Translations under genes and position numbers: made by a program
Part shown: positions 757 through 7,545 of the stretch, piece after piece
How positions within the stretch are numbered: the first letter of the stretch is position 1
Layout of the letters: every line of letters starts with the position of its first letter
Source of the DNA: a virus
Direction: 5' to 3' (one strand)
Length of the DNA: 64,000 bases
IMG/VR virus record: IMGVR_UViG_3300032241_002336
Location: 1 to 64,000 of that record
The notes under the pieces: model-generated
Told to the model about the DNA's origin: nothing
What the model saw: the letters and a program-made list of their open reading frames with translations, nothing else
The model's database searches: none

Positions 757-1911
757 TTACAATAATTTTAAAAAATTATTATATTCCATAGCATTTATAG
801 TTCTCCCTAACTCAGGTCCTTCTTTATATCCCCTCTTAATTAAATCATTACCATTTATTGTTAATTTAAAATTTAAAAAAGCATTAATTAATTTATTATC
901 AATATGTATTATATTAGCAAAAATTTTAATTTGTTCATTAGTCAGACCAGATAATTTTTCTTGTCGTTTAAAATTAACAGCATTCTCTGGGGTAAGAGAT
1001 TTTAAATTCAATAAAAAACTAATTGCTTTTATCTCAGTTATAGTATAGGTTAATTTATTTAACTCTCTAGATACTATAGACGGTTGATTATCAATTAATA
1101 ACTTAGAAATAACAATTATTGGGTCTTTTGATTCAATGAAATCATGGTTTACCTTCAAGTTTTTAAATATCCAGTCAAATAAATTATATTTATCCGACAT
1201 TTTCATAAAAAATATAACACTTTTAGCTGACTTAATGCTTTTAATGAATTCGTCTCTAATTCTTTCAGGACTAATACCCTCAAGACTAGCATCTTTTTTC
1301 AATGCATTATCTACATTTGAATCTAAATTACTACCAAATCTACTAGCAAGTCTAATTGCTCTTATGATTCTTAATCTGTCTTCATCAAAACGATTTGATG
1401 GATCCCCTACAGTACGTATTACACCATTTTTAAGGTCATTTACGCCATTAACTAAATCAACTATCTCTTGTCTATCTATGTCATAGAAAAGGGCGTTAAT
1501 CGTTAAATCTCTTCTCGTTACATCTGTTTCAATATTAGTAAATTTAACTGAATCTGGTCTACGACCCTTTCCGACATCGGTTCTGAAAGTAGCTATTTCA
1601 TATTCATTATTATCAGTGAATACATTTATTACACCAAAAGCTTTACCAGTTGGTATTGTTCGGTATCCAGCCTCGGATAATATTTCTTCTACCTTATCTG
1701 GTATTGCATCTGTAGCCAAATCAAAATCTTTTGGCTCTATACCTAATAAAGCATCTCTCACGGCACCACCGACCACAAATAATTTATAATCATTATCTTT
1801 AAATACCTTTTGAATATCAAAAATATCCTGTGGTAAATTAAATTTAAATGGAATGCGCTCTTTAGTCAATAATTTTTTAACTTGTTCTTTTATGTGTTTT
1901 TTTAAAAACAT
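757..1911 (-). CDS. cca: Class II tRNA nucleotidyltransferase (CCA-adding enzyme family)
   Basis: Motifs VGGAVRD, DFDLAT, RRDLTINAL, EDRLRIIRAIR. Confidence 0.9.
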   Translation of the reverse strand: MFLKKHIKEQVKKLLTKERIPFKFNLPQDIFDIQKVFKDNDYKLFVVGGAVRDALLGIEPKDFDLATDAIPDKVEEILSEAGYRTIPTGKAFGVINVFTDNNEYEIATFRTDVGKGRRPDSVKFTNIETDVTRRDLTINALFYDIDRQEIVDLVNGVNDLKNGVIRTVGDPSNRFDEDRLRIIRAIRLASRFGSNLDSNVDNALKKDASLEGISPERIRDEFIKSIKSAKSVIFFMKMSDKYNLFDWIFKNLKVNHDFIESKDPIIVISKLLIDNQPSIVSRELNKLTYTITEIKAISFLLNLKSLTPENAVNFKRQEKLSGLTNEQIKIFANIIHIDNKLINAFLNFKLTINGNDLIKRGYKEGPELGRTINAMEYNNFLKLL

Positions 1912-1918
1912 TTATATA

Positions 1919-3031
1919 TCAATATTTTTCACTAAAATAATTTAACACCCCCAAACTAACTTCTTTCATCGTAGTCTGACCATTTTTAATACTCTCTTTT
2001 GCAAAACCAATCATTTCTTTTAATTTTCCCAAATTTGGTAATTTATAACGATATTTTGTATTAAAAATTAATAATTTTTTCTTGTTTTCTTCTGATACTG
2101 AGTTAAAAAATAATTCTTTTTCTTTAGGATCATCGATTGGTTTTAAATGAGTTAGAAGTGTTGTTTCAAATTCTTCATCGCTTGGTTTTAGAGTTATTTT
2201 ATCTATATCACTTCTCTGATAAAATTTTTCAAAAATTGATAATGCTTCTGGTCTAATATCACCCATTCTAGTTGGCATTAGGTATGATGGATATATATAA
2301 GTCATAATAATTTCACACATTAAAGGGCCATAGCCTCTCTCAGCTGCAATTCTACCTAAGTTTTTAGTTGCGCTATTGATATCAGATACTACAATCATCC
2401 CATAGACTTTTTTTTCAGATGGGTTATAAATAGTGGCCTTAAGAAATAGATTTGTTTTTTCAACATAAATACCAGTATCATTTGGTATATCATTTAATGT
2501 AACCGCAGCTTCATTCAACAATTCCTCATCTATCTTTTTCGGTTCACGATACATATGCATATATGGATTTTCTTTTGATGGGTAATCTAATTTTGGATTT
2601 TCAATGAAGCCACGATTTTTGTAATAATTAATTAATTTTTTTCTAGAAAAATTACTCGATGCGCCAGGTATCAGTTTAAGGACTATATTATTATCATCAG
2701 CTAATTTTTGAAGATATTTTAGTATTTTACTTCCCTTTCCTTTACTGCGTTGATCTTTTGGTACTTCTATTATTTTAATTGTAATTAAATGATTATTTAC
2801 TATATCCAATTGTAAATCATATCCCAATTTTGTTAATAAATCTTCATATCTTTTAAAGACAGTTAAATCATTATTTTCTTTTAGTTTTGGTGTATTATCG
2901 TGACCACATTTATGACATATATACATTTCTTTTTTTGTTGATTCGGATGCTTTCCAATGCCAACCACATTTCTCACATGTAATGGTTTTATCTAAATTTT
3001 CTCTTAATAATTTTTTTATTAAATCTTTCAT
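1919..3031 (-). CDS. Multidomain protein: Zn ribbon plus GNAT-like acetyltransferase domain(s); probable head-packaged protein
   Basis: CEKC...CHKC; GNAT motif A VPKDQRSKGKGSKIL and YYKNRGF; second GYGPLM motif; N-terminal MKDLIKKLLRE. Confidence 0.6.
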   Translation of the reverse strand: MKDLIKKLLRENLDKTITCEKCGWHWKASESTKKEMYICHKCGHDNTPKLKENNDLTVFKRYEDLLTKLGYDLQLDIVNNHLITIKIIEVPKDQRSKGKGSKILKYLQKLADDNNIVLKLIPGASSNFSRKKLINYYKNRGFIENPKLDYPSKENPYMHMYREPKKIDEELLNEAAVTLNDIPNDTGIYVEKTNLFLKATIYNPSEKKVYGMIVVSDINSATKNLGRIAAERGYGPLMCEIIMTYIYPSYLMPTRMGDIRPEALSIFEKFYQRSDIDKITLKPSDEEFETTLLTHLKPIDDPKEKELFFNSVSEENKKKLLIFNTKYRYKLPNLGKLKEMIGFAKESIKNGQTTMKEVSLGVLNYFSEKY

Positions 3032-3035
3032 AAAT

Positions 3036-3068
3036 AAAAATGGGATATTAATATAAATATCCCATTTT
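3036..3068 (-). promoter_or_regulatory. Hairpin (terminator or start-occluding) with TATTTATA motif across the loop
   Basis: AAAAATGGGATATT...AATATCCCATTTTT immediately upstream of ATG 3031. Confidence 0.55.
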
Positions 3069-3077
3069 TTTTGATTA

Positions 3078-3506
3078 TTATTGTATTATTTTATTTAATA
3101 TTTTTCCGAATAATGATGTTTTTTGATTATTCATTTCCTTTTTAGGTTCAATAATTAATGGTTTATATTTTGGATATCCCTCTGGTCTTGACTTTAAGAA
3201 ATAAAATTTATCATTGAAAATATCATTAATTACTATATTTTTATTTTGATCCGTTAATTCACCATTAAGATAGGCATTCATTACATAAAATAATTTTCGA
3301 GATTGTCTATGATAGAAATTTAATTTATCAAAACAATTCTTCTCAAAGGTTTTAACTTCTGCACCTTCAATCTTAAATCTTTTGATTGTACCCATTGCTG
3401 AACTAATAGCAGAATATTTTTTTATATATCGATTGAAATGTCTTTTCATTCTTTTTGGTTTATTCCAATTCGCTATAAACCAACTTTGTTTAATATCTAT
3501 TGTCAT
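3078..3506 (-). CDS. Hypothetical protein
   Basis: 142-aa ORF, co-oriented with neighbours. Confidence 0.7.
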   Translation of the reverse strand: MTIDIKQSWFIANWNKPKRMKRHFNRYIKKYSAISSAMGTIKRFKIEGAEVKTFEKNCFDKLNFYHRQSRKLFYVMNAYLNGELTDQNKNIVINDIFNDKFYFLKSRPEGYPKYKPLIIEPKKEMNNQKTSLFGKILNKIIQ

Positions 3507-3558
3507 ATTTTTATATTTTAATTTTAATTATTATTATTAATTGAAAAATTAAAATATT

Positions 3559-3582
3559 TTATGGCGGTCGTATCTAGTACAT
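3559..3582 (-). other. Amber-containing minigene M-Y-(TAG)-I-R-P-P-stop
   Basis: ATG TAC TAG ATA CGA CCG CCA TAA; GC-rich codons in an otherwise A/T-rich spacer; A-rich leader. Confidence 0.6.
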
Positions 3583-3599
3583 ATAGTTAATTTTTATAA

Positions 3600-3947
3600 T
3601 TAAACATATTTTATATCTTTTCCCAATAATGGTAATGAGCTAGTAAGCTTCTGGGACTCATTAGATGGCTCAAATGCAACAGCTGTAATTTCATTATGAA
3701 AGTCAGGTTCTCTGAAAATAGTATGTTTAATACCCCTTAGAGTTGCTTTAATAATGAGTTCTTTTAGCTCTTCTTCATTCTTTACTGTGAGGAGTATGAG
3801 GTAGTTGGATTTATGCCAACAATTTGAAATTTTAGGATGTTCATACTGAAAATCTATTGCGCAGTGGGATGCTTGGGTAGCTTGAGTTCCTATGCTCAAG
3901 TCTCTTCTTGTTACAATACGTAATTTTTCTGTAATCTAGTGTGTCAT
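3600..3947 (-). CDS. Pth2/PTRHD1-like peptidyl-tRNA hydrolase-fold protein with in-frame TAG at codon 4
   Basis: ATG ACA CAC TAG ATT ACA GAA AAA TTA CGT ATT GTA ACA AGA AGA GAC is in frame with ORF 3600..3899 and restores the family N-terminal strand KLRIVTRRDL...AxQAxH; later VKNEEEL, FREPD, TAVAFEP, LPLL. Confidence 0.8.
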
Positions 3948-3983
3948 AATAATAAATATACTTTTTGGTTTATAAAAGTCAAG

Positions 3984-4054
3984 TGAACCTAGTGGGATTC
4001 AAACCCACGAAAACGTTTTTAGAGAACGCTGCTTTATCGCTAAGCTATAGGTCC
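3984..4054 (-). tRNA. Amber suppressor tRNA, anticodon CUA
   Basis: Cloverleaf: acceptor GGACCTA/TAGGTTC, A73; D stem GCTT/AAGC; anticodon arm GCGTT-CTCTAAA-AACGT; T arm GTGGG-TTTGAAT-CCCAC; CCA not encoded. Confidence 0.88.
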
Positions 4055-4055
4055 A

Positions 4056-4388
4056 TTAATGTAATAACAATTCTATATTATCCAAATTCAAGCCAAACTC
4101 AAAACCTGGCATAATATCAGTCGCTATTAATTTTTCACCATATGGAATTAAAGAAAACTTAATCGGATTCTGCCAATCTCCACCAGCACATACTTCCATT
4201 TTGTCAGAGTTAATTGATAAAACTTCAAAATTTTCAAAGTCTACTAATTCTTTAGTACCTTCTTCATTATTAATATATGGTATATTTTCAATAACATCAT
4301 ATAAAGCCATCGGATCTAAATCAATTAGAGTATGCTCAGCAAAGTTAAAAAAACCACATTTTATTAATATTTCAATAACTGATTTCAT
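4056..4388 (-). CDS. Hypothetical protein
   Basis: 110-aa ORF with AGGDWQNP motif; stop 1 nt before the tRNA. Confidence 0.7.
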   Translation of the reverse strand: MKSVIEILIKCGFFNFAEHTLIDLDPMALYDVIENIPYINNEEGTKELVDFENFEVLSINSDKMEVCAGGDWQNPIKFSLIPYGEKLIATDIMPGFEFGLNLDNIELLLH

Positions 4389-4396
4389 TTTAATTT

Positions 4397-4972
4397 TTAT
4401 TTTACAATTTCATTTTCAATTTTTTTATATAAATCATCCAATGATGAATCATTGTTAATTATAATGTCTGGTTTAATACTATCTTGTTCAACTTCTGAGG
4501 CATGTGCATCACTATTATTTGTGTTTGTTCTAATAACCTTTACTATTGTCGCATTCAATTCCTTTAGAATTTTTTCTTCATGTATAAATCTTAAATCTGG
4601 TATTATTATTTTTAAATTTGGATTAGTTTCCCTTTCTTTTAAATACCAATATTTAAATTTTAAGACCCAAATATTTCTCCCAACATTGAATTCATCTTCA
4701 TTCATATATTTATGAATATCATATTGGAATAATTCTGTGCCAATTATTTGGAGCATCTTTCTGGGTGAAACATTCCATCTAGGATCAATTGTTTCTTTAT
4801 CTTTTTCATCACCCCACATTTGTTCGTGACTAAATCCGAACATTTCTATTAAACCCCTTTTTATTGGATCAGCAAATGAATATCTTACGTATCCATAATT
4901 ATTTATTATGTATTCGGCAATTGTATCTTTTCCGCTTCTTTTAAGACCAGTTATTGATATTAAATTATTCAT
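4397..4972 (-). CDS. Deoxynucleoside monophosphate kinase (T4 gp1-like)
   Basis: P-loop ITGLKRSGKDT, SFADPIK, PRKMLQIIGTE, DLRFIHE, HASE. Confidence 0.88.
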   Translation of the reverse strand: MNNLISITGLKRSGKDTIAEYIINNYGYVRYSFADPIKRGLIEMFGFSHEQMWGDEKDKETIDPRWNVSPRKMLQIIGTELFQYDIHKYMNEDEFNVGRNIWVLKFKYWYLKERETNPNLKIIIPDLRFIHEEKILKELNATIVKVIRTNTNNSDAHASEVEQDSIKPDIIINNDSSLDDLYKKIENEIVK

Positions 4973-4987
4973 AAAACTTTAAAAAAA

Positions 4988-5011
4988 AATCCTTTAATTT
5001 CTTAAAGGATT
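4988..5011 (-). terminator. Intrinsic terminator ending the tRNA cluster
   Basis: AATCCTTTAA/TTAAAGGATT hairpin followed by a T-run on the minus strand. Confidence 0.6.
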
Positions 5012-5019
5012 CTATATGA

Positions 5020-5072
5020 CAGAATTATCTTATTTTTTTTAACCAAAAAAATTAATTGCTGAAATAATTCTT
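5020..5072 (-). ncRNA. Stem-CAGCAA structured element, copy A
   Basis: AGAATTAT-TT-CAGCAA...ATAATTCT-G. Confidence 0.55.
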
Positions 5073-5073
5073 G

Positions 5074-5176
5074 TAGCGGGGGATGGAATTGCACCACCGA
5101 TCTCTTGGTTATTTTTTTAACGAATATTCTTATTCGTTTTCTTGAGCCAAGCGAGTTGCTACTTCTCTACCCCGCA
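5074..5176 (-). tRNA. Initiator-like tRNA-Met(CAU) with a 31-nt insertion in the anticodon
   Basis: Acceptor TGCGGGG/CCCCGCT (1:72 mismatch); anticodon arm CTTGG-CTCA[31 nt]TAA-CCAAG; T arm GGTGG-TGCAATT-CCATC. Confidence 0.8.
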
Positions 5177-5288
5177 AGCTGTTTATAAATATATACAAAT
5201 ATACAAAAGTTTTTTGAAACGTCAAATATTTTTTTAAATTATTTTCTAAATAATAATTTAGAGAATATGGTTTATAAAAAAATTTTAG

Positions 5289-5357
5289 TTGCAGGCGCAG
5301 AATCGAACTGAACCATAAAGTTATGAGCCTTACATGCTACCATTACACCAACCCGCT
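5289..5357 (-). tRNA. tRNA-Met(CAU), initiator-like, slightly degenerate T arm
   Basis: AGCGGGTTGGTGTAATGGTAGCATG-TAAGG-CTCATAA-CTTTA...CAG-TTCGATT-CTG...GCCTGCAA. Confidence 0.75.
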
Positions 5358-5360
5358 AGT

Positions 5361-5425
5361 GTTCCCTGCAGATTTGATACTGCATTAATTCCCAGAAGGA
5401 ACTGTGTTACTTACACTAAGGAAAC
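5361..5425 (-). ncRNA. tRNA-like RNA (non-canonical; possible UCU anticodon)
   Basis: Acceptor GTTTCCT/AGGGAAC + A; D stem GTGT/ACAC; AGTTC-CTTCTGG-GAATT arm; GCAG/CTGC arm whose loop lacks TTC. Confidence 0.55.
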
Positions 5426-5429
5426 ATAT

Positions 5430-5496
5430 CAGAATCAGATTTTTTCTGTTTTAAATTTCAGTTTTAATAGAATTTTAATTTGCTGAACTGATTCTT
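5430..5496 (-). ncRNA. Stem-CAGCAA structured element, copy B
   Basis: AGAATCAG-TT-CAGCAA...CTGATTCT-G. Confidence 0.55.
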
Positions 5497-5501
5497 AAAA
5501 A

Positions 5502-5715
5502 TTTTGTCTCAAAATGAGGGTTCGTATTGTTTTTTACTTAGTTACGTAACTAAGGATTTTTATTTAACTGTAATCATAACAGTACTAGTCAACTTTCGTT
5601 TTATTAAGTTCAGAGGATAATTGGGGTTTAGCCGTTTATCTTAAACTATTGGGAACTAGTAATGCACCATATCATATATTTGATTTGTTTGCTGTACCCA
5701 TTTTTTTAGACAAAA
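5502..5715 (-). ncRNA. Stem-CAGCAA structured element, copy C (long form)
   Basis: AAAATGGG-TA-CAGCAA...CCCTCATTTT-G, outer stem TTTTGTCT/AGACAAAA, internal hairpins such as CTTAGTTAC/GTAACTAAG. Confidence 0.5.
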
Positions 5716-5757
5716 ACAATATTTTAAAGAGCTATATATTTCTAATTTAAATATACA

Positions 5758-5789
5758 CAAAGATACAAAAAATTTTAATTACTGTCAAG
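5758..5789 (-). promoter_or_regulatory. Bacteroidota-type promoter driving the RNA cluster
   Basis: TTGAC upstream element and TATCTTTG, matching TAnnTTTG. Confidence 0.65.
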
Positions 5790-5806
5790 TTTTTTTGGAT
5801 TTTTTT

Positions 5807-6013
5807 TTATTTATTTGGTAAATCTCTTATAATTAAAAAAATTCCTTGTTTATTATTCAAATAATGTACCACATTTATTATTTCAAAATATTTCTTGAAT
5901 TCTTCTAAATAAATTAATTCATTTTTTCTTGGTATATAATGTAATTTAATGTTACCTCTAATTATTTTCCATTTATCATCTAATATTGATAGACTGTATT
6001 TTTTTCTAAACAT
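5807..6013 (-). CDS. Hypothetical protein
   Basis: 68-aa ORF. Confidence 0.6.
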   Translation of the reverse strand: MFRKKYSLSILDDKWKIIRGNIKLHYIPRKNELIYLEEFKKYFEIINVVHYLNNKQGIFLIIRDLPNK

Positions 6014-6102
6014 ATCTTAAAAATAATAAATTAGTTACTATTTATTTTTGTTCTATAATGTATTTATTAGTATAAGTAATAATTTTAATTAAAAACAATT
6101 TT

Positions 6103-6234
6103 ATGGTAAAACAAGAAAAACTTTATGGTTGTGGATGTAAGGGTAATACAGTTAAAACAAATACTACTGTTACTCAGACTAATGTACCTCCAACTACTAC
6201 ACAAACAGTCCCAACTGTTAAAACTAGCAAGTAA
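6103..6234 (+). CDS. Small protein with GCGCK motif and Thr-rich tail (43 aa)
   Basis: MVKQEKLYGCGCKGNTVKTNTTVTQTNVPPTTTQTVPTVKTSK; TATTTAT at 6061; terminator directly after. Confidence 0.65.
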   Translation: MVKQEKLYGCGCKGNTVKTNTTVTQTNVPPTTTQTVPTVKTSK

Positions 6235-6242
6235 GGAATAAT

Positions 6243-6271
6243 TAAAAATGGGGTTTTAGGCCCCATTTTTA
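6243..6271. terminator. Bidirectional intrinsic terminator
   Basis: TAAAAATGGGG/CCCCATTTTTA. Confidence 0.7.
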
Positions 6272-6397
6272 ATTTAAAGTTAAAACCCCAATAAAGCGTA
6301 TTACTAGGGGTTATAAGTTCCAATCCTAATAGGTTAGTTGTTGGTTGGAATCTTGATTAGATCATTTATATATACTATATAGTATAAAATGTGCCAG

Positions 6398-6742
6398 TGG
6401 AGCAATTGGGAGTCGAACCCAAGTCTTAAGTATTCTTCAAAAGTTTTCTACATGTTTATTAGAGTTTTATAACCCTACAAATCTTTACAGCATTTTACTA
6501 TTACTGTGAATAGTCTACTATTTTTGATTCTTAGTATTGAATGTTCGTAGTTTACTACTATTACTTTATTAGGCTAAAGCAAGCTCTTCTTCGCTAACAG
6601 TTAATGTTGCTTCGTCAAGAAAATTTTTTGATACGATAAAATCGTTGTCATTTATTTTTTTAATAGCGAGATTTAAGTGCTTCCATCTAGCACTACATGC
6701 TTACGATTTACGACTATACCTAATCAAAACCAGTATTGCCCC
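6398..6742 (-). ncRNA. ssrA: tmRNA
   Basis: 5' GGGGCAA pairs with 3' TTGCTCC-A (G3.U70 Ala identity); T arm TTGGG-TTCGACT-CCCAA; ATAAAT before resume codon; tag frame 6649-6569 DNDFIVSKNFLDEATLTVSEEELALA-TAA-TAA. Confidence 0.92.
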
Positions 6743-6843
6743 ATATTTTAAAGAACTAAAATTTATTTATATAAATACATCATTCTGACATAAAAGTTCA
6801 TAATGCTATACAAATATACAACATTCTGAACTATTTTGCAAAT

Positions 6844-7545
6844 TTATTTCTTAGTTTTTGATTTTTTCTTTATAATATCATCTATAATGCCATAACTAAA
6901 TGCTTCTTCTGCTGAAAACCATAGATCTCTTTGGGCATCTTTTTTAACTTGTTCGGCAGACTTATTGGTATATGAACCAAGTAATTCGAATAATAAATCA
7001 TTCATTTTTTTAGCCTCAGTCATTGAAATTTCCATATCTTGGATATTACCAACAGCTCCGCTAGATACTTGGTGTAGCATTACTCTACTTGATGGTAGAG
7101 AAAATCTCTTCCCCTTTGTACCTGCACCCAATAATATACTACCCATACTAGCGGCCATTCCTGTGTTAATAGTGACAATATCTGAATTAACATAATTCAT
7201 TACGTCTACCATACTGAGACCAGATTTTACGCTACCACCTGGCGTGTCAACGTGTATTGTAATATCACTATTTTCAAGATTATCTAGGAAAAGAAGTTGA
7301 GCTTGTACAACTGTACTCATTCTATCATTTACTGGACCAGCTAACCAAATTTTTCTTTCCATCATCATACGTGAAAAGATATCTATCTGTGTCACTCTTA
7401 ACTCTCTTTCTTCAAGAACATATGGTGTCATTGATGCTTGTACCCCATATAATTTCTCCTGAAGATGTGACCAATGTTCAAAATCTGATAATGATACTCC
7501 CATATGCTGTATAGCATAATCTTTAAATTCGAGTTTAAAATTCAT
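6844..7545 (-). CDS. clpP: ATP-dependent Clp protease proteolytic subunit
   Basis: DIFSRMM, TPGGSV, GMAASMGS (Ser), MLHQ (His), RDLWF (Asp). Confidence 0.95.
   Translation of the reverse strand: MNFKLEFKDYAIQHMGVSLSDFEHWSHLQEKLYGVQASMTPYVLEERELRVTQIDIFSRMMMERKIWLAGPVNDRMSTVVQAQLLFLDNLENSDITIHVDTPGGSVKSGLSMVDVMNYVNSDIVTINTGMAASMGSILLGAGTKGKRFSLPSSRVMLHQVSSGAVGNIQDMEISMTEAKKMNDLLFELLGSYTNKSAEQVKKDAQRDLWFSAEEAFSYGIIDDIIKKKSKTKK

What the first reader, a model, noticed from the sequence alone, without database searches (positions are those of the whole stretch)
3559..4054. Amber-gated module: suppressor tRNA(CUA), Pth2-like gene with TAG at codon 4, and amber minigene
Seen: three adjacent co-oriented elements. 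A tRNA with a CUA anticodon (3984-4054); 36 nt later ATG ACA CAC TAG ATT..., continuing in frame into a complete Pth2/PTRHD1-like domain; then ATG TAC TAG ATA CGA CCG CCA TAA. Both ambers share the context AC-TAG-AT. TAG acts as an ordinary stop elsewhere (15338, 23514, 24034, 29526, 59477) and long ORFs have no internal TAG, so this is not genome-wide recoding. Known: Pth recycles dropped-off peptidyl-tRNA, and very short ORFs (lambda bar type) promote drop-off. Inference: a self-contained translational switch in which the Pth-like protein is made only when the suppressor outcompetes RF1, possibly sensing release-factor or tRNA status. I do not recognise this arrangement from described systems.
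Basis: partly seen in the sequence, partly recalled or inferred. Interest (0 to 1): 0.88.

Follow-up and report, generated by a model that had tools for sequence, protein, structure and literature searches.

The report
Suppressor-tRNA-gated phage translation switch
A large phage that otherwise uses the normal genetic code carries its own UAG-reading tRNA beside a tRNA-hydrolase-like gene and a tiny ribosome-stalling leader that each hold an early UAG, so both should work only when that tRNA overrides the stop, a layout kept in dozens of phage lineages.

Summary

It is not chance. In 88 related loci whose DNA I could read, 87 have TAG just before the domain and none has TAA or TGA. An ATG lies 1-7 codons upstream in 83 of the 84 loci counted. 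ARAGORN finds a CUA tRNA in 73 of 85 loci. An amber mini-ORF with an R/K-x-P-P, RGPT or RGP tail is present in 72 of 85.

The 81.6-kb contig and a complete 362-kb relative use the standard code. Each has one CUA tRNA, one amber-gated gene and one amber leader.

New here: a helix starts at the mini-ORF stop and pairs with the start region of the next gene, beating shuffles in 42 of 53 distinct regions. That is the architecture of an arrest-peptide switch.

Best reading: a suppressor-dependent switch with two outputs. Readthrough and stalling are inferred, not shown.

I found no paper describing it. This scan has noted the same module on other DNA.

The parts
3984..4054 (-). tRNA with anticodon CUA (amber suppressor type). 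Short variable loop, G1-C72, A73, D loop without GG. Amino-acid identity unknown.
   Evidence: ARAGORN. Rfam RF00005, 62 bits. 65 distinct CUA tRNAs at the homologous loci. A nearest-isoacceptor test was inconclusive.
3955..3982 (-). Sigma-70-like promoter match TTGACT-16-TATATT between the tRNA and the ATG. Weak; may be chance.
   Evidence: 10 of 12 positions match, but the region's total of 19 hits equals the shuffle mean of 18.2.
3600..3947 (-). PTH2-family (Pth2-like) ORF, 115 codons plus stop. ATG 3947-3945, in-frame TAG at codon 4 (3938-3936), then ATT. Stop TAA 3602-3600.
   Evidence: Sequence and translation. Pfam PF01981 E 2.9e-8, residues 8-107. PDB profile search finds Pth2 chain 2zv3 at E 2.6e-8. 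TAG at this place in 84 of 84 loci and in 3 of 4 further loci.
3936..3938 (-). The gating amber codon, in the context CAC TAG ATT.
   Evidence: Across 60 distinct contexts the base after TAG is A in 47 and G in 12, and the next codon is ATT in 43. Logan contig identical.
3559..3582 (-). Amber mini-ORF (leader): ATG TAC TAG ATA CGA CCG CCA TAA = M-Y-amber-I-R-P-P-stop. TAG at 3576-3574.
   Evidence: It is the only such ORF in the 81.6-kb contig, with 0 for the TAA and TGA versions. The pattern ATG-x(1-6)-TAG-x(0-8)-Pro-Pro-stop occurs 43 times on the gene strand and once on the other strand in 85 loci; the TAA version occurs once and the TGA version never. A relaxed motif is found in 72 of 85 loci.
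3513..3557 (-). Predicted long-range helix. The 5' strand (3557-3545) starts 2 nt after the mini-ORF stop. The 3' strand (3525-3513) ends 6 nt before the ATG of the next gene.
   Evidence: MFE fold. In the window the duplex is -9.5 kcal/mol against a shuffle mean of -5.7, z -2.0, with 8 of 200 shuffles as good; 42 of 53 distinct relatives' regions have 10 or fewer of 200. Geometry.
3078..3506 (-). Gene X, 142 aa, no known family. It starts 52 nt after the mini-ORF and is the proposed regulated output.
   Evidence: ORF. No Pfam or PHROG hit. Only 2 homologues in the protein search. No usable atlas hit. In relatives, an 88-156-aa gene from one of four unrelated families sits in the same position.
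6395..6742 (-). Phage tmRNA (context: a ribosome-rescue RNA in the same co-oriented block).
   Evidence: 71.6 bits. A tmRNA also lies near the module in L005, L016, L019/22, L031/32, L044 and L083 and in L033.
757..1911 (-). CCA-adding enzyme / tRNA nucleotidyltransferase (context, two genes downstream of gene X).
   Evidence: Pfam PolyA_pol E 4e-37; PHROG 2244 E 1.2e-54.

Best explanation
This is a translational switch driven by the phage's own amber-suppressor tRNA. It has two outputs.

1. Ribosomes start the Pth2-like mRNA at ATG 3947 and meet UAG at codon 4. If RF1 wins, only a tripeptide is made. If the adjacent tRNA(CUA) decodes UAG, the full PTH2-family protein is made.

2. The leader at 3582-3559 works in the same way. 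Without suppression the ribosome leaves at codon 3, and a helix that begins right after the leader's stop codon stays paired with the start region of gene X (3078-3506). With suppression the ribosome runs on to R-P-P-stop and pauses there. The pause could be RAPP-like arrest or slow termination after Pro-Pro. The paused ribosome's footprint melts the 5' strand of the helix and frees gene X for initiation.

So production of the hydrolase-like protein and of gene X would be tied to how well UAG is being read in the infected cell.

Shown: the sequence elements, their conservation and linkage, standard-code usage, and the helix signal.

Inferred: that readthrough occurs and is due to this tRNA, that the ribosome pauses at the leader's end, and the physiological purpose. 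A plausible purpose is timing, or matching rescue of peptidyl-tRNA and stalled ribosomes to the amount of stop-codon readthrough; a tmRNA and a CCA-adding enzyme lie in the same block.
For: 1. Exclusive use of TAG. In 85 loci (window, L001-L084), 84 contain the gene's 5' end. All 84 have TAG directly before the domain, with no TAA or TGA. 83 have an in-frame ATG 1-7 codons upstream. After dereplication TAG is present in 55 of 55 clusters at 90% identity and 28 of 28 at 70%. Three of 4 further loci in mis-binned MAG contigs also have it. By contrast, among 84 complete long ORFs in this genome the stops are TAA 57, TGA 16, TAG 11.

2. Linkage to the tRNA. A CUA tRNA is found in 73 of 85 loci and lies on the gene's strand in 72 of those 73. 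That is 47 of 55 clusters at 90% identity.

3. Initiation at the upstream ATG. A GGAG-type sequence lies 7-9 nt before that ATG in all 6 of the 63 distinct 5' regions that have one. The post-TAG codon is Ile or Val but often not a possible start codon: GTA 8, GTT 3, CTT 1, GCT 1 of 60.

4. Same context in both amber ORFs. The TAG is followed by A or G, then T. The base after TAG is A or G in 59 of 60 gene contexts and 49 of 49 leader contexts.

5. No general recoding. The Pth2-like gene is the only real gene in the contig with ATG-x(1-10)-TAG followed by a long ORF. In the complete relative G005 (362,018 bp) there is one CUA tRNA. Same-frame ORF pairs split by a single stop number 4 for TAG, 17 for TGA and 55 for TAA. 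The other early-TAG candidates I inspected have an ATG 3-15 codons after the TAG or are not convincing genes. There is one amber leader per genome.

6. Leader motif and geometry. There are 45 distinct leader peptides, all with at least 4 codons between TAG and the stop. Their tails include RAPP, KAPP, RPP, KPP, RGPT and RGP. RAPP and RGPP are reported as robust, context-tolerant arrest motifs (PMC12992588 abstract and sections 8 and 10; PMC10951233 abstract).

7. The helix. 42 of 53 distinct leader-to-gene-X regions beat dinucleotide shuffles, with 10 or fewer of 200 as good and a mean z of -3.5. In all 42 the 5' strand starts between 6 nt before and 4 nt after the first base following the stop. 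The 3' strand includes the ATG of gene X in 20 and ends 1-14 nt before it in 22. The helix sequences differ between families.
Against: - There is no expression, proteomic or toeprint data. No RNA run holding this DNA was listed, which is only a blank.
- The window's own helix is weak: z -2.0, and the whole spacer folds no better than shuffles (z -0.65). Eleven of 53 regions show no significant helix.
- The window's tail is R-P-P, not the tested R-A/G-P-P. The nascent chain would be only 7 residues, much shorter than known arrest peptides.
- Thirteen of 24 database homologues in alignment A1 have Q where the window has TAG. They may be code-15 gene calls of TAG, or true CAG codons.
- One relative (L129, 42% identity) starts normally, and the mycobacteriophage ScoobyDoobyDoo homologue has a usable GTG start. 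Both still sit next to a CUA tRNA, so the gate is not obligatory for the pairing.
- L003, L044 and L075 have the TAG but I found no CUA tRNA there.
- The contig is only about 23% of the genome, so other TAG-containing genes of this phage could lie in the unseen part.
- Only the best 80 of 159 IMG/VR relatives were examined.
Confidence: 0.7

Rival explanations
1. The switch reads release-factor activity rather than the tRNA. The tRNA is made constitutively, and the variable input is how well host RF1 terminates at UAG (host state, or phage interference with RF1). Readthrough still occurs; only the sensed quantity differs.
For: The architecture is a direct competition between tRNA(CUA) and RF1 at codon 3 or 4. 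The tRNA lies only 36 nt upstream of the gene, so the two may be made together, which would make tRNA supply a poor variable. The conserved post-TAG context suggests tuned competition.
Against: Nothing in the sequences separates this from tRNA gating. I did not look for an RF1 gene or an RF1 inhibitor. A possible promoter between the tRNA and the gene would uncouple them.
Confidence: 0.12
2. There is no readthrough. ATG-x-TAG is a tiny upstream ORF (a start-stop or bar-like minigene), and the Pth2-like protein starts at the codon after TAG or further downstream by reinitiation. The neighbouring CUA tRNA serves another purpose.
For: ATT, ATA, ACG and ATG follow the TAG in 47 of 60 distinct contexts and are start or near-cognate start codons. 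In mycobacteriophage ScoobyDoobyDoo a GTG start directly follows a TAG, with a fitting AGGGG 7 nt upstream. Gene callers place starts downstream.
Against: GTA, GTT, CTT or GCT follow the TAG in 13 of 60 contexts. A tiny uORF would not need TAG in 84 of 84 loci when TAA is the common stop. Where present, SD-like sequences are spaced for the upstream ATG. The tRNA linkage and the same TAG context in the leader would go unexplained. Downstream TTG or GTG starts cut the first strand of the domain.
Confidence: 0.08
3. Ordinary TAG recoding (code 15). The phage reads TAG as an amino acid in many genes, and these two ORFs are just the examples that fall in this fragment.
For: Suppressor tRNAs are typical of TAG-recoded phages (10.1101/2021.08.26.457843, passages read). 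The contig is only about 23% complete. L001, L078 and L081 have a second in-frame TAG inside the domain, and no long ORF ends in TAG in the two of these loci that one search examined (L078, L081).
Against: TAG ends 11 of 84 complete long ORFs here. Reading TAG as sense adds no more coverage than reading TGA as sense. No structural gene in the 81.6 kb has an in-frame TAG. The complete relative G005 shows no excess of TAG-split genes. The TAG always sits at codon 2-8 of both ORFs, which random recoding would not give.
Confidence: 0.04
4. Chance or decay: a pseudogene with a nonsense mutation next to an unrelated tRNA, plus a random short ORF.
For: Taken alone, the window has a single TAG and a 7-codon ORF in AT-rich DNA.
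Against: Conservation across 55 clusters at 90% identity. Strand bias of 43 to 1 and stop-type bias of 43 to 1 to 0 for the leader pattern. 23 invariant residues in the protein alignment.
Confidence: 0.01

Closest known systems
RAPP/RGPP-type regulatory arrest peptides (ApdA, ApdP, ApcA; SecM with RAGP) that control a downstream gene
   Same: A short ORF ending in an Arg/Lys-x-Pro-Pro-type motif sits 26-144 nt upstream of a gene. That gene's start region is paired with sequence next to the arrest site, so a paused ribosome would unmask it. RAPP itself occurs in three relatives' leaders. The motif's properties are taken from PMC10951233 (abstract) and PMC12992588 (abstract, sections 8 and 10).
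   Different: The leader is only 6-15 codons long, so there is no long nascent chain in the tunnel. The motif is often directly followed by the stop. The window has R-P-P, not R-A/G-P-P. The input is not secretion or insertion but whether an early UAG is read through. The elements are phage-borne, and the downstream genes belong to at least four unrelated families. No arrest has been measured.
Stop-codon recoding in phages, with suppressor tRNAs and 'code change modules' (Borges et al., preprint 10.1101/2021.08.26.457843, passages read)
   Same: A phage-encoded suppressor tRNA makes translation of ORFs with in-frame stops depend on a phage-made factor. This is proposed as a timing device.
   Different: Here the genome uses the standard code. 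Only two short-range targets carry the TAG, always within the first 8 codons. The targets are a PTH2-family gene and a leader, not lysis or structural genes. The words 'peptidyl' and 'hydrolase' do not occur in that preprint's main text. Its supplementary tables were not seen.
Engineered amber-in-leader switches (Liu, Qi, Yanofsky and Arkin 2011, as described in review PMC6412442, section 6 and the Figure 8 legend)
   Same: A UAG placed in a leader peptide makes downstream expression depend on amber suppression.
   Different: That system is synthetic, uses the tna leader and controls transcription termination (Rho). The one here is natural, and the helix points to translational unmasking.
PTH2 genes of jumbo phages (Iyer et al. 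2021, PMC7824862, passages read)
   Same: The same protein family in large phages, proposed there to hydrolyse peptidyl-tRNA during ribosome rescue.
   Different: That paper's main text mentions neither an in-frame stop nor 'suppressor' (0 occurrences). The clade here lacks the Lys-rich loop of archaeal Pth2 in the profile alignment.
RF2 (prfB) autoregulation through an in-frame UGA, and lambda bar minigenes (both recalled, not checked in a paper here)
   Same: prfB: an early in-frame stop whose decoding outcome reports termination capacity. bar: 2-3-codon ORFs that yield short peptidyl-tRNAs needing Pth.
   Different: prfB bypasses the stop by +1 frameshifting and senses its own product. bar minigenes are not read through and do not gate a gene.

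Membership tests
Pfam PF01981 (PTH2, peptidyl-tRNA hydrolase 2 superfamily) | Profile HMM score above the curated gathering threshold over the whole domain | tested here: met
   34.3 bits against a cut-off of 23, E 2.9e-8, profile positions 2-114 of 115. Six-frame search of the genome gives 33.8 bits. A profile of 25 homologues finds Pth2 chains 2zv3, 24bt, 1rzw, 1q7s and 1wn2 at E 2.6e-8 to 4.9e-5.
Pfam PF01981 (PTH2) | Pth2 alpha/beta fold | tested here: inconclusive
   The AlphaFold2 model has mean pLDDT 68.3 and pTM 0.52. Seven of the first ten Foldseek rows are chains named as Pth2 or bit1; the others are an uncharacterised Thermoplasma protein (1rlk), a Pyrococcus project entry (1wn2) and a PrfH-bound ribosome entry (9mq4_A, rank 8). 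The Pth2 and bit1 rows are weak (E 8e-3 to 9e-2, TM 0.42-0.48), and no match reached E <= 0.001.
Pfam PF01981 (PTH2) | Catalytic residues and hydrolase activity on peptidyl-tRNA | tested here: inconclusive
   In the profile alignment the GKGK loop of archaeal Pth2 falls in a gap, and the R-D-A-G segment aligns with the invariant F-R-E-P-D. Which residues are catalytic in Pth2 is recalled, not checked. Activity cannot be tested with these tools.
Amber suppressor tRNA | Cloverleaf tRNA with anticodon CUA | tested here: met
   ARAGORN. Rfam 62 bits. 65 distinct CUA tRNAs at homologous loci.
Amber suppressor tRNA | Is aminoacylated and decodes UAG; identity of the inserted residue | not testable with these tools
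   The nearest-isoacceptor comparison gave no clear parent, with 59-73% identity to several isotypes. 'tRNA-Pyl' is only ARAGORN's label for the CUA anticodon.
RAPP-like arrest peptides | R-A/G-P-P core at the arrest site | tested here: not met
   The window's leader ends I-R-P-P-stop. RAPP occurs in relatives L015, L023 and L029; KAPP, RKPP, RGPT and RGP occur in others. So it works like, but is not shown to be, a RAPP peptide.
RAPP-like arrest peptides | Upstream of a regulated gene whose initiation region is masked by a structure the stalled ribosome would open | tested here: met
   42 of 53 distinct regions beat shuffles. The helix starts at the leader's stop and ends at or within 14 nt of the ATG of gene X. 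The window itself is borderline, with 8 of 200 shuffles as good.
RAPP-like arrest peptides | Measured elongation or termination arrest | not testable with these tools
   Needs toeprinting or in vitro translation.
TAG-recoded (code 15) phage | In-frame TAG in many genes; TAG not used as a stop | tested here: not met
   TAG ends 11 of 84 complete long ORFs. There is one amber-gated gene in 81.6 kb. The complete relative G005 has 4 TAG-split ORF pairs against 17 for TGA and 55 for TAA. The unseen part of this genome, about 77%, is untested.
Lambda-bar-type minigene | Two- to three-codon ORF whose expression causes peptidyl-tRNA drop-off | not testable with these tools
   Without suppression both ORFs are 3-codon ORFs. 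Drop-off cannot be assessed. The conserved tail after the TAG argues that the read-through form matters.

The most novel reading that the evidence does not exclude
The three conserved parts may form a self-regulating 'readthrough rheostat'. In this reading the Pth2-like enzyme is not a housekeeping hydrolase. It is the effector of a feedback loop that acts on products of suppression: peptidyl- or aminoacyl-tRNA(CUA), or the peptidyl-tRNA of the ribosome paused on the leader. The phage would thereby set and limit how strongly UAG is read in the infected cell. The same circuit could be the control core from which full TAG recoding evolved in related huge phages.

Three observations fit this. The Pth2-like gene stays next to a CUA tRNA even where the TAG gate is absent (L129, ScoobyDoobyDoo). 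The clade has its own invariant polar residues. The module occurs both in standard-code loci and in loci that look recoded.
Probability: 0.2. Interest if true: 0.9.

Novelty: new variant of a known kind. Interest (0 to 1): 0.82.

Why it matters
Many phages that use the standard code carry suppressor tRNAs with no known purpose. This module gives such a tRNA two concrete, conserved targets.

It would be a natural gene switch whose input is stop-codon readthrough. So far that design is known mainly from synthetic biology.

It links three areas that are usually studied apart: phage code switching, ribosome arrest peptides and peptidyl-tRNA or ribosome rescue. It also suggests a possible route by which recoding could evolve from a small control circuit.

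In practice it corrects systematic misannotation. Gene callers truncate these PTH2 genes or translate the TAG as Q.

It also offers compact parts for engineering: a tRNA, a readthrough context and a 7-10-codon leader.

It can be tested now. The cultured Tenacibaculum phage pT24 has the TAG-gated gene and a tRNA-Sup.

Tried and rejected
- Similarity searches that found nothing: blastn (distant mode) of window 3000-7000 against phage records. The search for related loci with the single protein also found none; an alignment was needed.
- tRNA identity: pairwise identity to co-resident tRNAs gave no clear parent.
- Function of gene X and its counterparts: no Pfam or PHROG hits. The four families and the window's gene are unrelated by hhalign, all with probability below 1%. 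None has a homologue in this contig. The atlas gave no usable hit. The protein search found only 2 homologues.
- The small gene coupled to Pth2 in relatives has no Pfam family.
- Structure: the AF2 model is only moderately confident and the Foldseek matches to Pth2 are weak.
- Folding the window's spacer alone is not significant (z -0.65).
- The promoter scan equals shuffles.
- The motif ATGNNNTAGATT is not enriched in four relatives' genomes (31 hits against 35 for the control). The four extra hits I fetched are out of frame in other genes.
- Missing tRNAs: a pattern search of five records found 14 places. ARAGORN on 8 of them gave no CUA tRNA. Rfam at E <= 0.1 did not call the odd CUA-loop sequences that I saw by eye upstream of the gene in L033 and L034.
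- The crude TAG-sense ORF gain on 12-kb loci is noisy and settles little.
- RNA evidence: no RNA holder was listed. The one run laid is contigs from what is probably the source sample.
- Pyrrolysine reading: not pursued, and I did not search for pyl genes.
- Supplementary files of the papers were not seen. Table S2 of the recoding preprint could list such genes.
Full report
**What is in the window**

All elements lie on the minus strand.

- ARAGORN and Rfam agree on a tRNA with anticodon CUA at 3984-4054, at 62 bits against a gathering score of 29.
- Thirty-six bases downstream the sequence reads ATG ACA CAC TAG ATT ACA GAA AAA and stays open to TAA at 3602-3600.
- Pfam PTH2 (PF01981) matches residues 8-107 of this 115-codon frame to profile positions 2-114 of 115, with E 2.9e-8 and 34.3 bits against a cut-off of 23. 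The domain therefore begins four codons after the TAG.
- The first canonical start after the TAG, TTG 3899, would remove the first strand of the domain.
- Seventeen bases after the stop lies ATG TAC TAG ATA CGA CCG CCA TAA (3582-3559). Fifty-two bases further on, a 142-codon ORF begins (3506-3078).
- The same co-oriented block holds a tmRNA, a tRNA-Met, a dNMP kinase and a CCA-adding enzyme.
- A Logan contig at word depth 18 matches 3450-4100 without a difference. The run is probably the source sample, so this is not independent support.

**The genome uses the standard code**

- The contig is 81,655 bp with 28% G+C. CheckV rates it 23% complete.
- A protein identical to the window's gene X sits on a 324,674-bp contig that I could not fetch. 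This is therefore a fragment of a jumbo phage.
- Of the 85 ORFs of 100 or more codons, one runs off the contig end; the other 84 end in TAA (57), TGA (16) or TAG (11).
- Reading TAG as sense raises ORF coverage from 0.914 to 0.923. Reading TGA as sense gives 0.915.
- I scanned for ATG, then 1-10 codons, then a stop, then 60 or more open codons. This gave four TAG cases. Three are antisense inside larger genes and the fourth is the Pth2-like gene.

**Relatives**

- tblastn against phage records found 12 records. The best are uncultured huge phages of 462-735 kb and Tenacibaculum phage pT24.
- All four loci I opened begin M-x-TAG-I. In pT24 the annotated CDS starts 87 nt after the homology begins.
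- With an alignment of 25 homologues, a scan of IMG/VR found 159 relatives, of which the best 80 were kept.
- In the resulting 85 loci, L042 lacks the 5' end. In the other 84 the codon before the domain is always TAG, never TAA or TGA.
- An in-frame ATG lies 1-7 codons upstream in 83 loci: 2 codons in 42, 3 in 18, 4 in 14, 7 in 8 and 1 in one. L075 has none.
- The next codon is ATT in 64, GTA in 9, GTT in 4, ATA in 2, CTT in 2, and ACG, GCT and ATG in one each.
- Many loci are near-duplicates. At 90% protein identity there are 55 clusters: 55 with the TAG, 54 with the ATG, 47 with a CUA tRNA and 44 with the amber leader. At 70% identity there are 28 clusters, with 28, 27, 22 and 18 respectively.
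- A scan of 185,579 species genomes gave only four loci, all on large contigs filed under archaeal MAGs. Three have the TAG. The fourth (L129, 42% identity) starts normally but has a CUA tRNA just downstream.

**The tRNA travels with the gene**

- ARAGORN finds a CUA tRNA in 73 of 85 loci, on the gene's strand in 72 of them. It lies either just upstream (as here) or 0.3-3.3 kb downstream.
- Of the 12 loci without one, seven are cut by a contig end beside the gene.
- L033 and L034 have an odd CUA-loop tRNA-like sequence directly upstream. I saw it by eye, but neither ARAGORN nor Rfam calls it.
- In L003, L044 and L075 I found none.
- The linkage reaches a distant lineage. In mycobacteriophage ScoobyDoobyDoo the annotated 'peptidyl tRNA hydrolase' is followed 181 nt later by tRNA(cta). 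That gene has a usable GTG start, directly preceded by a TAG.
- The Stenotrophomonas and Xanthomonas phage homologues are C-terminal domains of longer ORFs and have no TAG.

**Where translation starts**

- Six of the 63 distinct 5' regions have a GGAG-type sequence, and in all six it lies 7-9 nt before the upstream ATG. The other regions are A-rich (58% A), as expected for hosts that do not use Shine-Dalgarno pairing.
- The post-TAG codon encodes Ile or Val in nearly all loci. It is GTA, GTT, CTT or GCT in 13 of 60 distinct contexts, and none of these can start translation.
- Exclusive use of TAG in an AT-rich genome where TAA dominates is hard to explain by a plain upstream ORF.
- I therefore read the TAG as decoded, most simply by the adjacent tRNA.
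- Against this, 13 of 24 database homologues in the alignment show Q at this position. They may be gene calls made under code 15, or true CAG codons.

**The minigene is conserved and looks like an arrest leader**

- The strict pattern ATG, 1-6 codons, TAG, 0-8 codons, Pro-Pro, stop occurs 43 times on the gene's strand and once on the other strand in the 85 loci. With TAA in place of TAG it occurs once, and with TGA never.
- Allowing RGPT, RGP, RAPT and similar tails, 72 of 85 loci have such an ORF within 2 kb downstream of the Pth2-like gene.
- There are 45 distinct peptides. Examples are MY*IRPP (window), MN*IKAPP, MK*IIRAPP, MM*ILRAPP, MEH*IIRPP, MM*IIRGPT and MK*IKIRGPTYVVFN.
- All 45 have at least four codons between the TAG and the stop.
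- The contig has one such ORF. The complete relative G005 also has one, and the TGA control gives one hit there.
- RAPP and RGPP are reported as robust arrest motifs that tolerate different N-terminal contexts and resist EF-P. [quoted passage not shown]
- Pro-Pro before a stop is also known to slow termination (Hayes et al. 2002, seen only as a reference in PMC6412442).
- The window's R-P-P lacks the middle residue, and the chain is very short. Arrest is therefore a proposal.

**What the leader would control**

- In 70 of the 72 loci with a leader, a further ORF of 40 or more codons starts 26-144 nt after it (88-156 aa where complete); in L056 and L071 none was found, both being cut by a contig end.
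- These genes fall into four families of 32, 17, 12 and 6 loci, plus three singletons including the window's. They have no detectable relationship to one another and no Pfam or PHROG family.
- MFE folds showed a recurring long-range helix.
- I tested it by duplex energy between two stretches: the 30 nt that start at the leader's last sense codon, and positions -30 to +9 around the next gene's ATG. Each was compared with 200 dinucleotide shuffles.
- Of 53 distinct regions, 42 had 10 or fewer shuffles as good, with a mean z of -3.5. L017 was skipped because my start call was wrong.
- The window gave -9.5 against -5.7 kcal/mol, z -2.0, with 8 of 200 shuffles as good.
- Eleven regions were not significant: L001, L002, L024, L033, L044, L054, L063, L070, L073, L078 and L081.
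- In all 42 significant regions the 5' strand starts between 6 nt before and 4 nt after the first base following the stop. The 3' strand includes the ATG in 20 and ends 1-14 nt before it in 22. The median is 16 pairs.
- The helix sequences differ between families, so the architecture is conserved rather than the sequence.
- A ribosome released at the TAG would sit at least 15 nt short of the helix. A ribosome paused at the leader's end would cover the 5' strand. This is the layout of SecM-secA-type switches, with readthrough as the input.

**No other targets in a complete relative**

- G005 (362,018 bp, CheckV 100%) has 45 tRNA genes and one CUA tRNA.
- Its long ORFs end in TAA 355, TGA 65 and TAG 40. 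Reading TAG as sense raises coverage exactly as much as reading TGA as sense (0.889 against 0.888).
- Same-frame ORF pairs split by one stop number 4 for TAG, 17 for TGA and 55 for TAA.
- There are 14 early-TAG candidates. Apart from the Pth2-like gene, the five I inspected either have an ATG 3-15 codons after the TAG or are not convincing genes.
- The tRNA therefore seems to have two dedicated in-frame targets. It could still act on ordinary TAG stops.
- L001, L078 and L081 carry a second TAG inside the domain. In the two of these loci that one search examined (L078 and L081), no long ORF ends in TAG, so they may be truly recoded.

**The protein**

- A full-library phmmer search found 1,420 cluster representatives at E <= 0.001 and 425 at E <= 1e-10. 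More distant ones start normally, as M-x-K-L-Y-V.
- A profile of 25 homologues finds archaeal and human Pth2 structures (2zv3 at E 2.6e-8). The Lys-rich loop falls in a gap, and F-R-E-P-D aligns with R-D-A-G.
- The AF2 model is moderate (pLDDT 68.3). Most of the top Foldseek hits, 7 of the first 10 rows, are Pth2 or bit1 chains, but the matches are weak.
- Family membership by profile is therefore met. Activity is unknown.
- Iyer et al. noted PTH2 in jumbo phages as a possible rescue factor, without mentioning a stop codon or a suppressor (PMC7824862, passages).

**Literature and earlier notes**

- These term sets found no paper describing the module: peptidyl-tRNA hydrolase + suppressor tRNA + phage + recoding; suppressor tRNA + bacteriophage + arrest peptide; huge phages + suppressor tRNA + peptidyl-tRNA hydrolase (none with all three); PTH2 + suppressor tRNA (zero papers); and leader peptide + amber codon + suppressor tRNA + ribosome stalling + phage (only genetic-code-expansion reviews).
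- The nearest idea in print is synthetic: an amber codon placed in the tna leader (PMC6412442, section 6).
- The library lacks most subscription journals, and supplements were closed.
- This scan's own notebook holds 15 notes on the same kind of module in at least 14 other genomes, with similar readings. I looked at these after my analysis, and they are not independent evidence.

**Verdict**

The most likely mechanism is a suppressor-tRNA-dependent gate on a PTH2-family gene, together with an amber-gated stalling leader that unmasks the next gene (confidence about 0.7). Still open are the input that is sensed (tRNA or RF1), the residue inserted, whether the ribosome truly arrests, and what the hydrolase-like protein and gene X do.

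Noticed in passing
L005 6329-6586, L009 6329-6583, L063 4785-5045 and 12 other loci: In many relatives a conserved 78-94-aa gene (..IIFHFNKKHLED..IPMWVIK.KG.TYYV.HV..GFSTKETPDNP.TKGS..) starts at an ATG that overlaps the end of the Pth2-like gene, so it would be amber-gated through translational coupling. It has no Pfam family and no homologue in the window's contig.
   Followed up: partly
Spacers between leader and gene X, e.g. L009, L010, L016, L023, L029, L050: Repeated heptamers TTGGACA and ATAGACA, often as palindromes (CTTGGACA..TGTCCAAG), sit inside the loop of the long-range helix. They could be a protein-binding site, a promoter element or a stabilising hairpin.
   Followed up: no
L034 5880-5955; L033 5880-5955: tRNA-like sequences with a CUA anticodon loop and an abnormal D region lie directly upstream of the Pth2-like gene. 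They were seen by eye and are not called by ARAGORN or by Rfam at E <= 0.1.
   Followed up: partly
L099 (Mycobacterium phage ScoobyDoobyDoo) 1474-2090: The annotated peptidyl-tRNA hydrolase gene 79 reads GTG TAG GTG at its start and is followed by tRNA(cta), gene 80. Between them, at about 1870-1945, is an unannotated sequence with a T arm and an acceptor end in CCA that looks tRNA-like.
   Followed up: no
L004 (Tenacibaculum phage pT24) 2952-3906: CDS BPT24_235 is annotated from 3088, but homology and an ATG-AAA-TAG-ATA head begin at about 2952. The PTH2 domain is there the N-terminal part of a frame of about 315 codons. A tRNA-Sup lies 2.5 kb upstream. I found no amber leader within 2 kb downstream.
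   Followed up: partly
L001, L078, L081: A second in-frame TAG lies inside the PTH2 domain (..EFP*IY..). In L078 and L081 no long ORF ends in TAG (L001 was too short), so these huge phages may be truly TAG-recoded while keeping the same module.
   Followed up: partly
window, whole contig: The contig is rated 23% complete. A protein identical to ORF 3078-3506 is recorded on a 324,674-bp contig, so the window comes from a jumbo phage of roughly 325-355 kb.
   Followed up: partly
window 5198-5225 and 3955-3982, minus strand: The two best sigma-70-like matches in 3000-5500 share the form TTGAC(G/T)-16-TATATT. The second ends 7 nt before the ATG of the Pth2-like gene, which would give a leaderless or nearly leaderless mRNA if it is used. 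The total number of hits equals the shuffle expectation.
   Followed up: no
L126-L129: Contigs of 170-427 kb filed under archaeal MAG names (Methanobacterium, Pacearchaeota, Thermoplasmatota) carry this phage module. One has the same length as IMG/VR phage contig L038, so they are probably mis-binned huge phages.
   Followed up: partly
window 6397-6742, minus strand: Phage tmRNA with predicted tag peptide VSEEELALA. A tmRNA recurs 2.4-6 kb from the module in several relatives.
   Followed up: no
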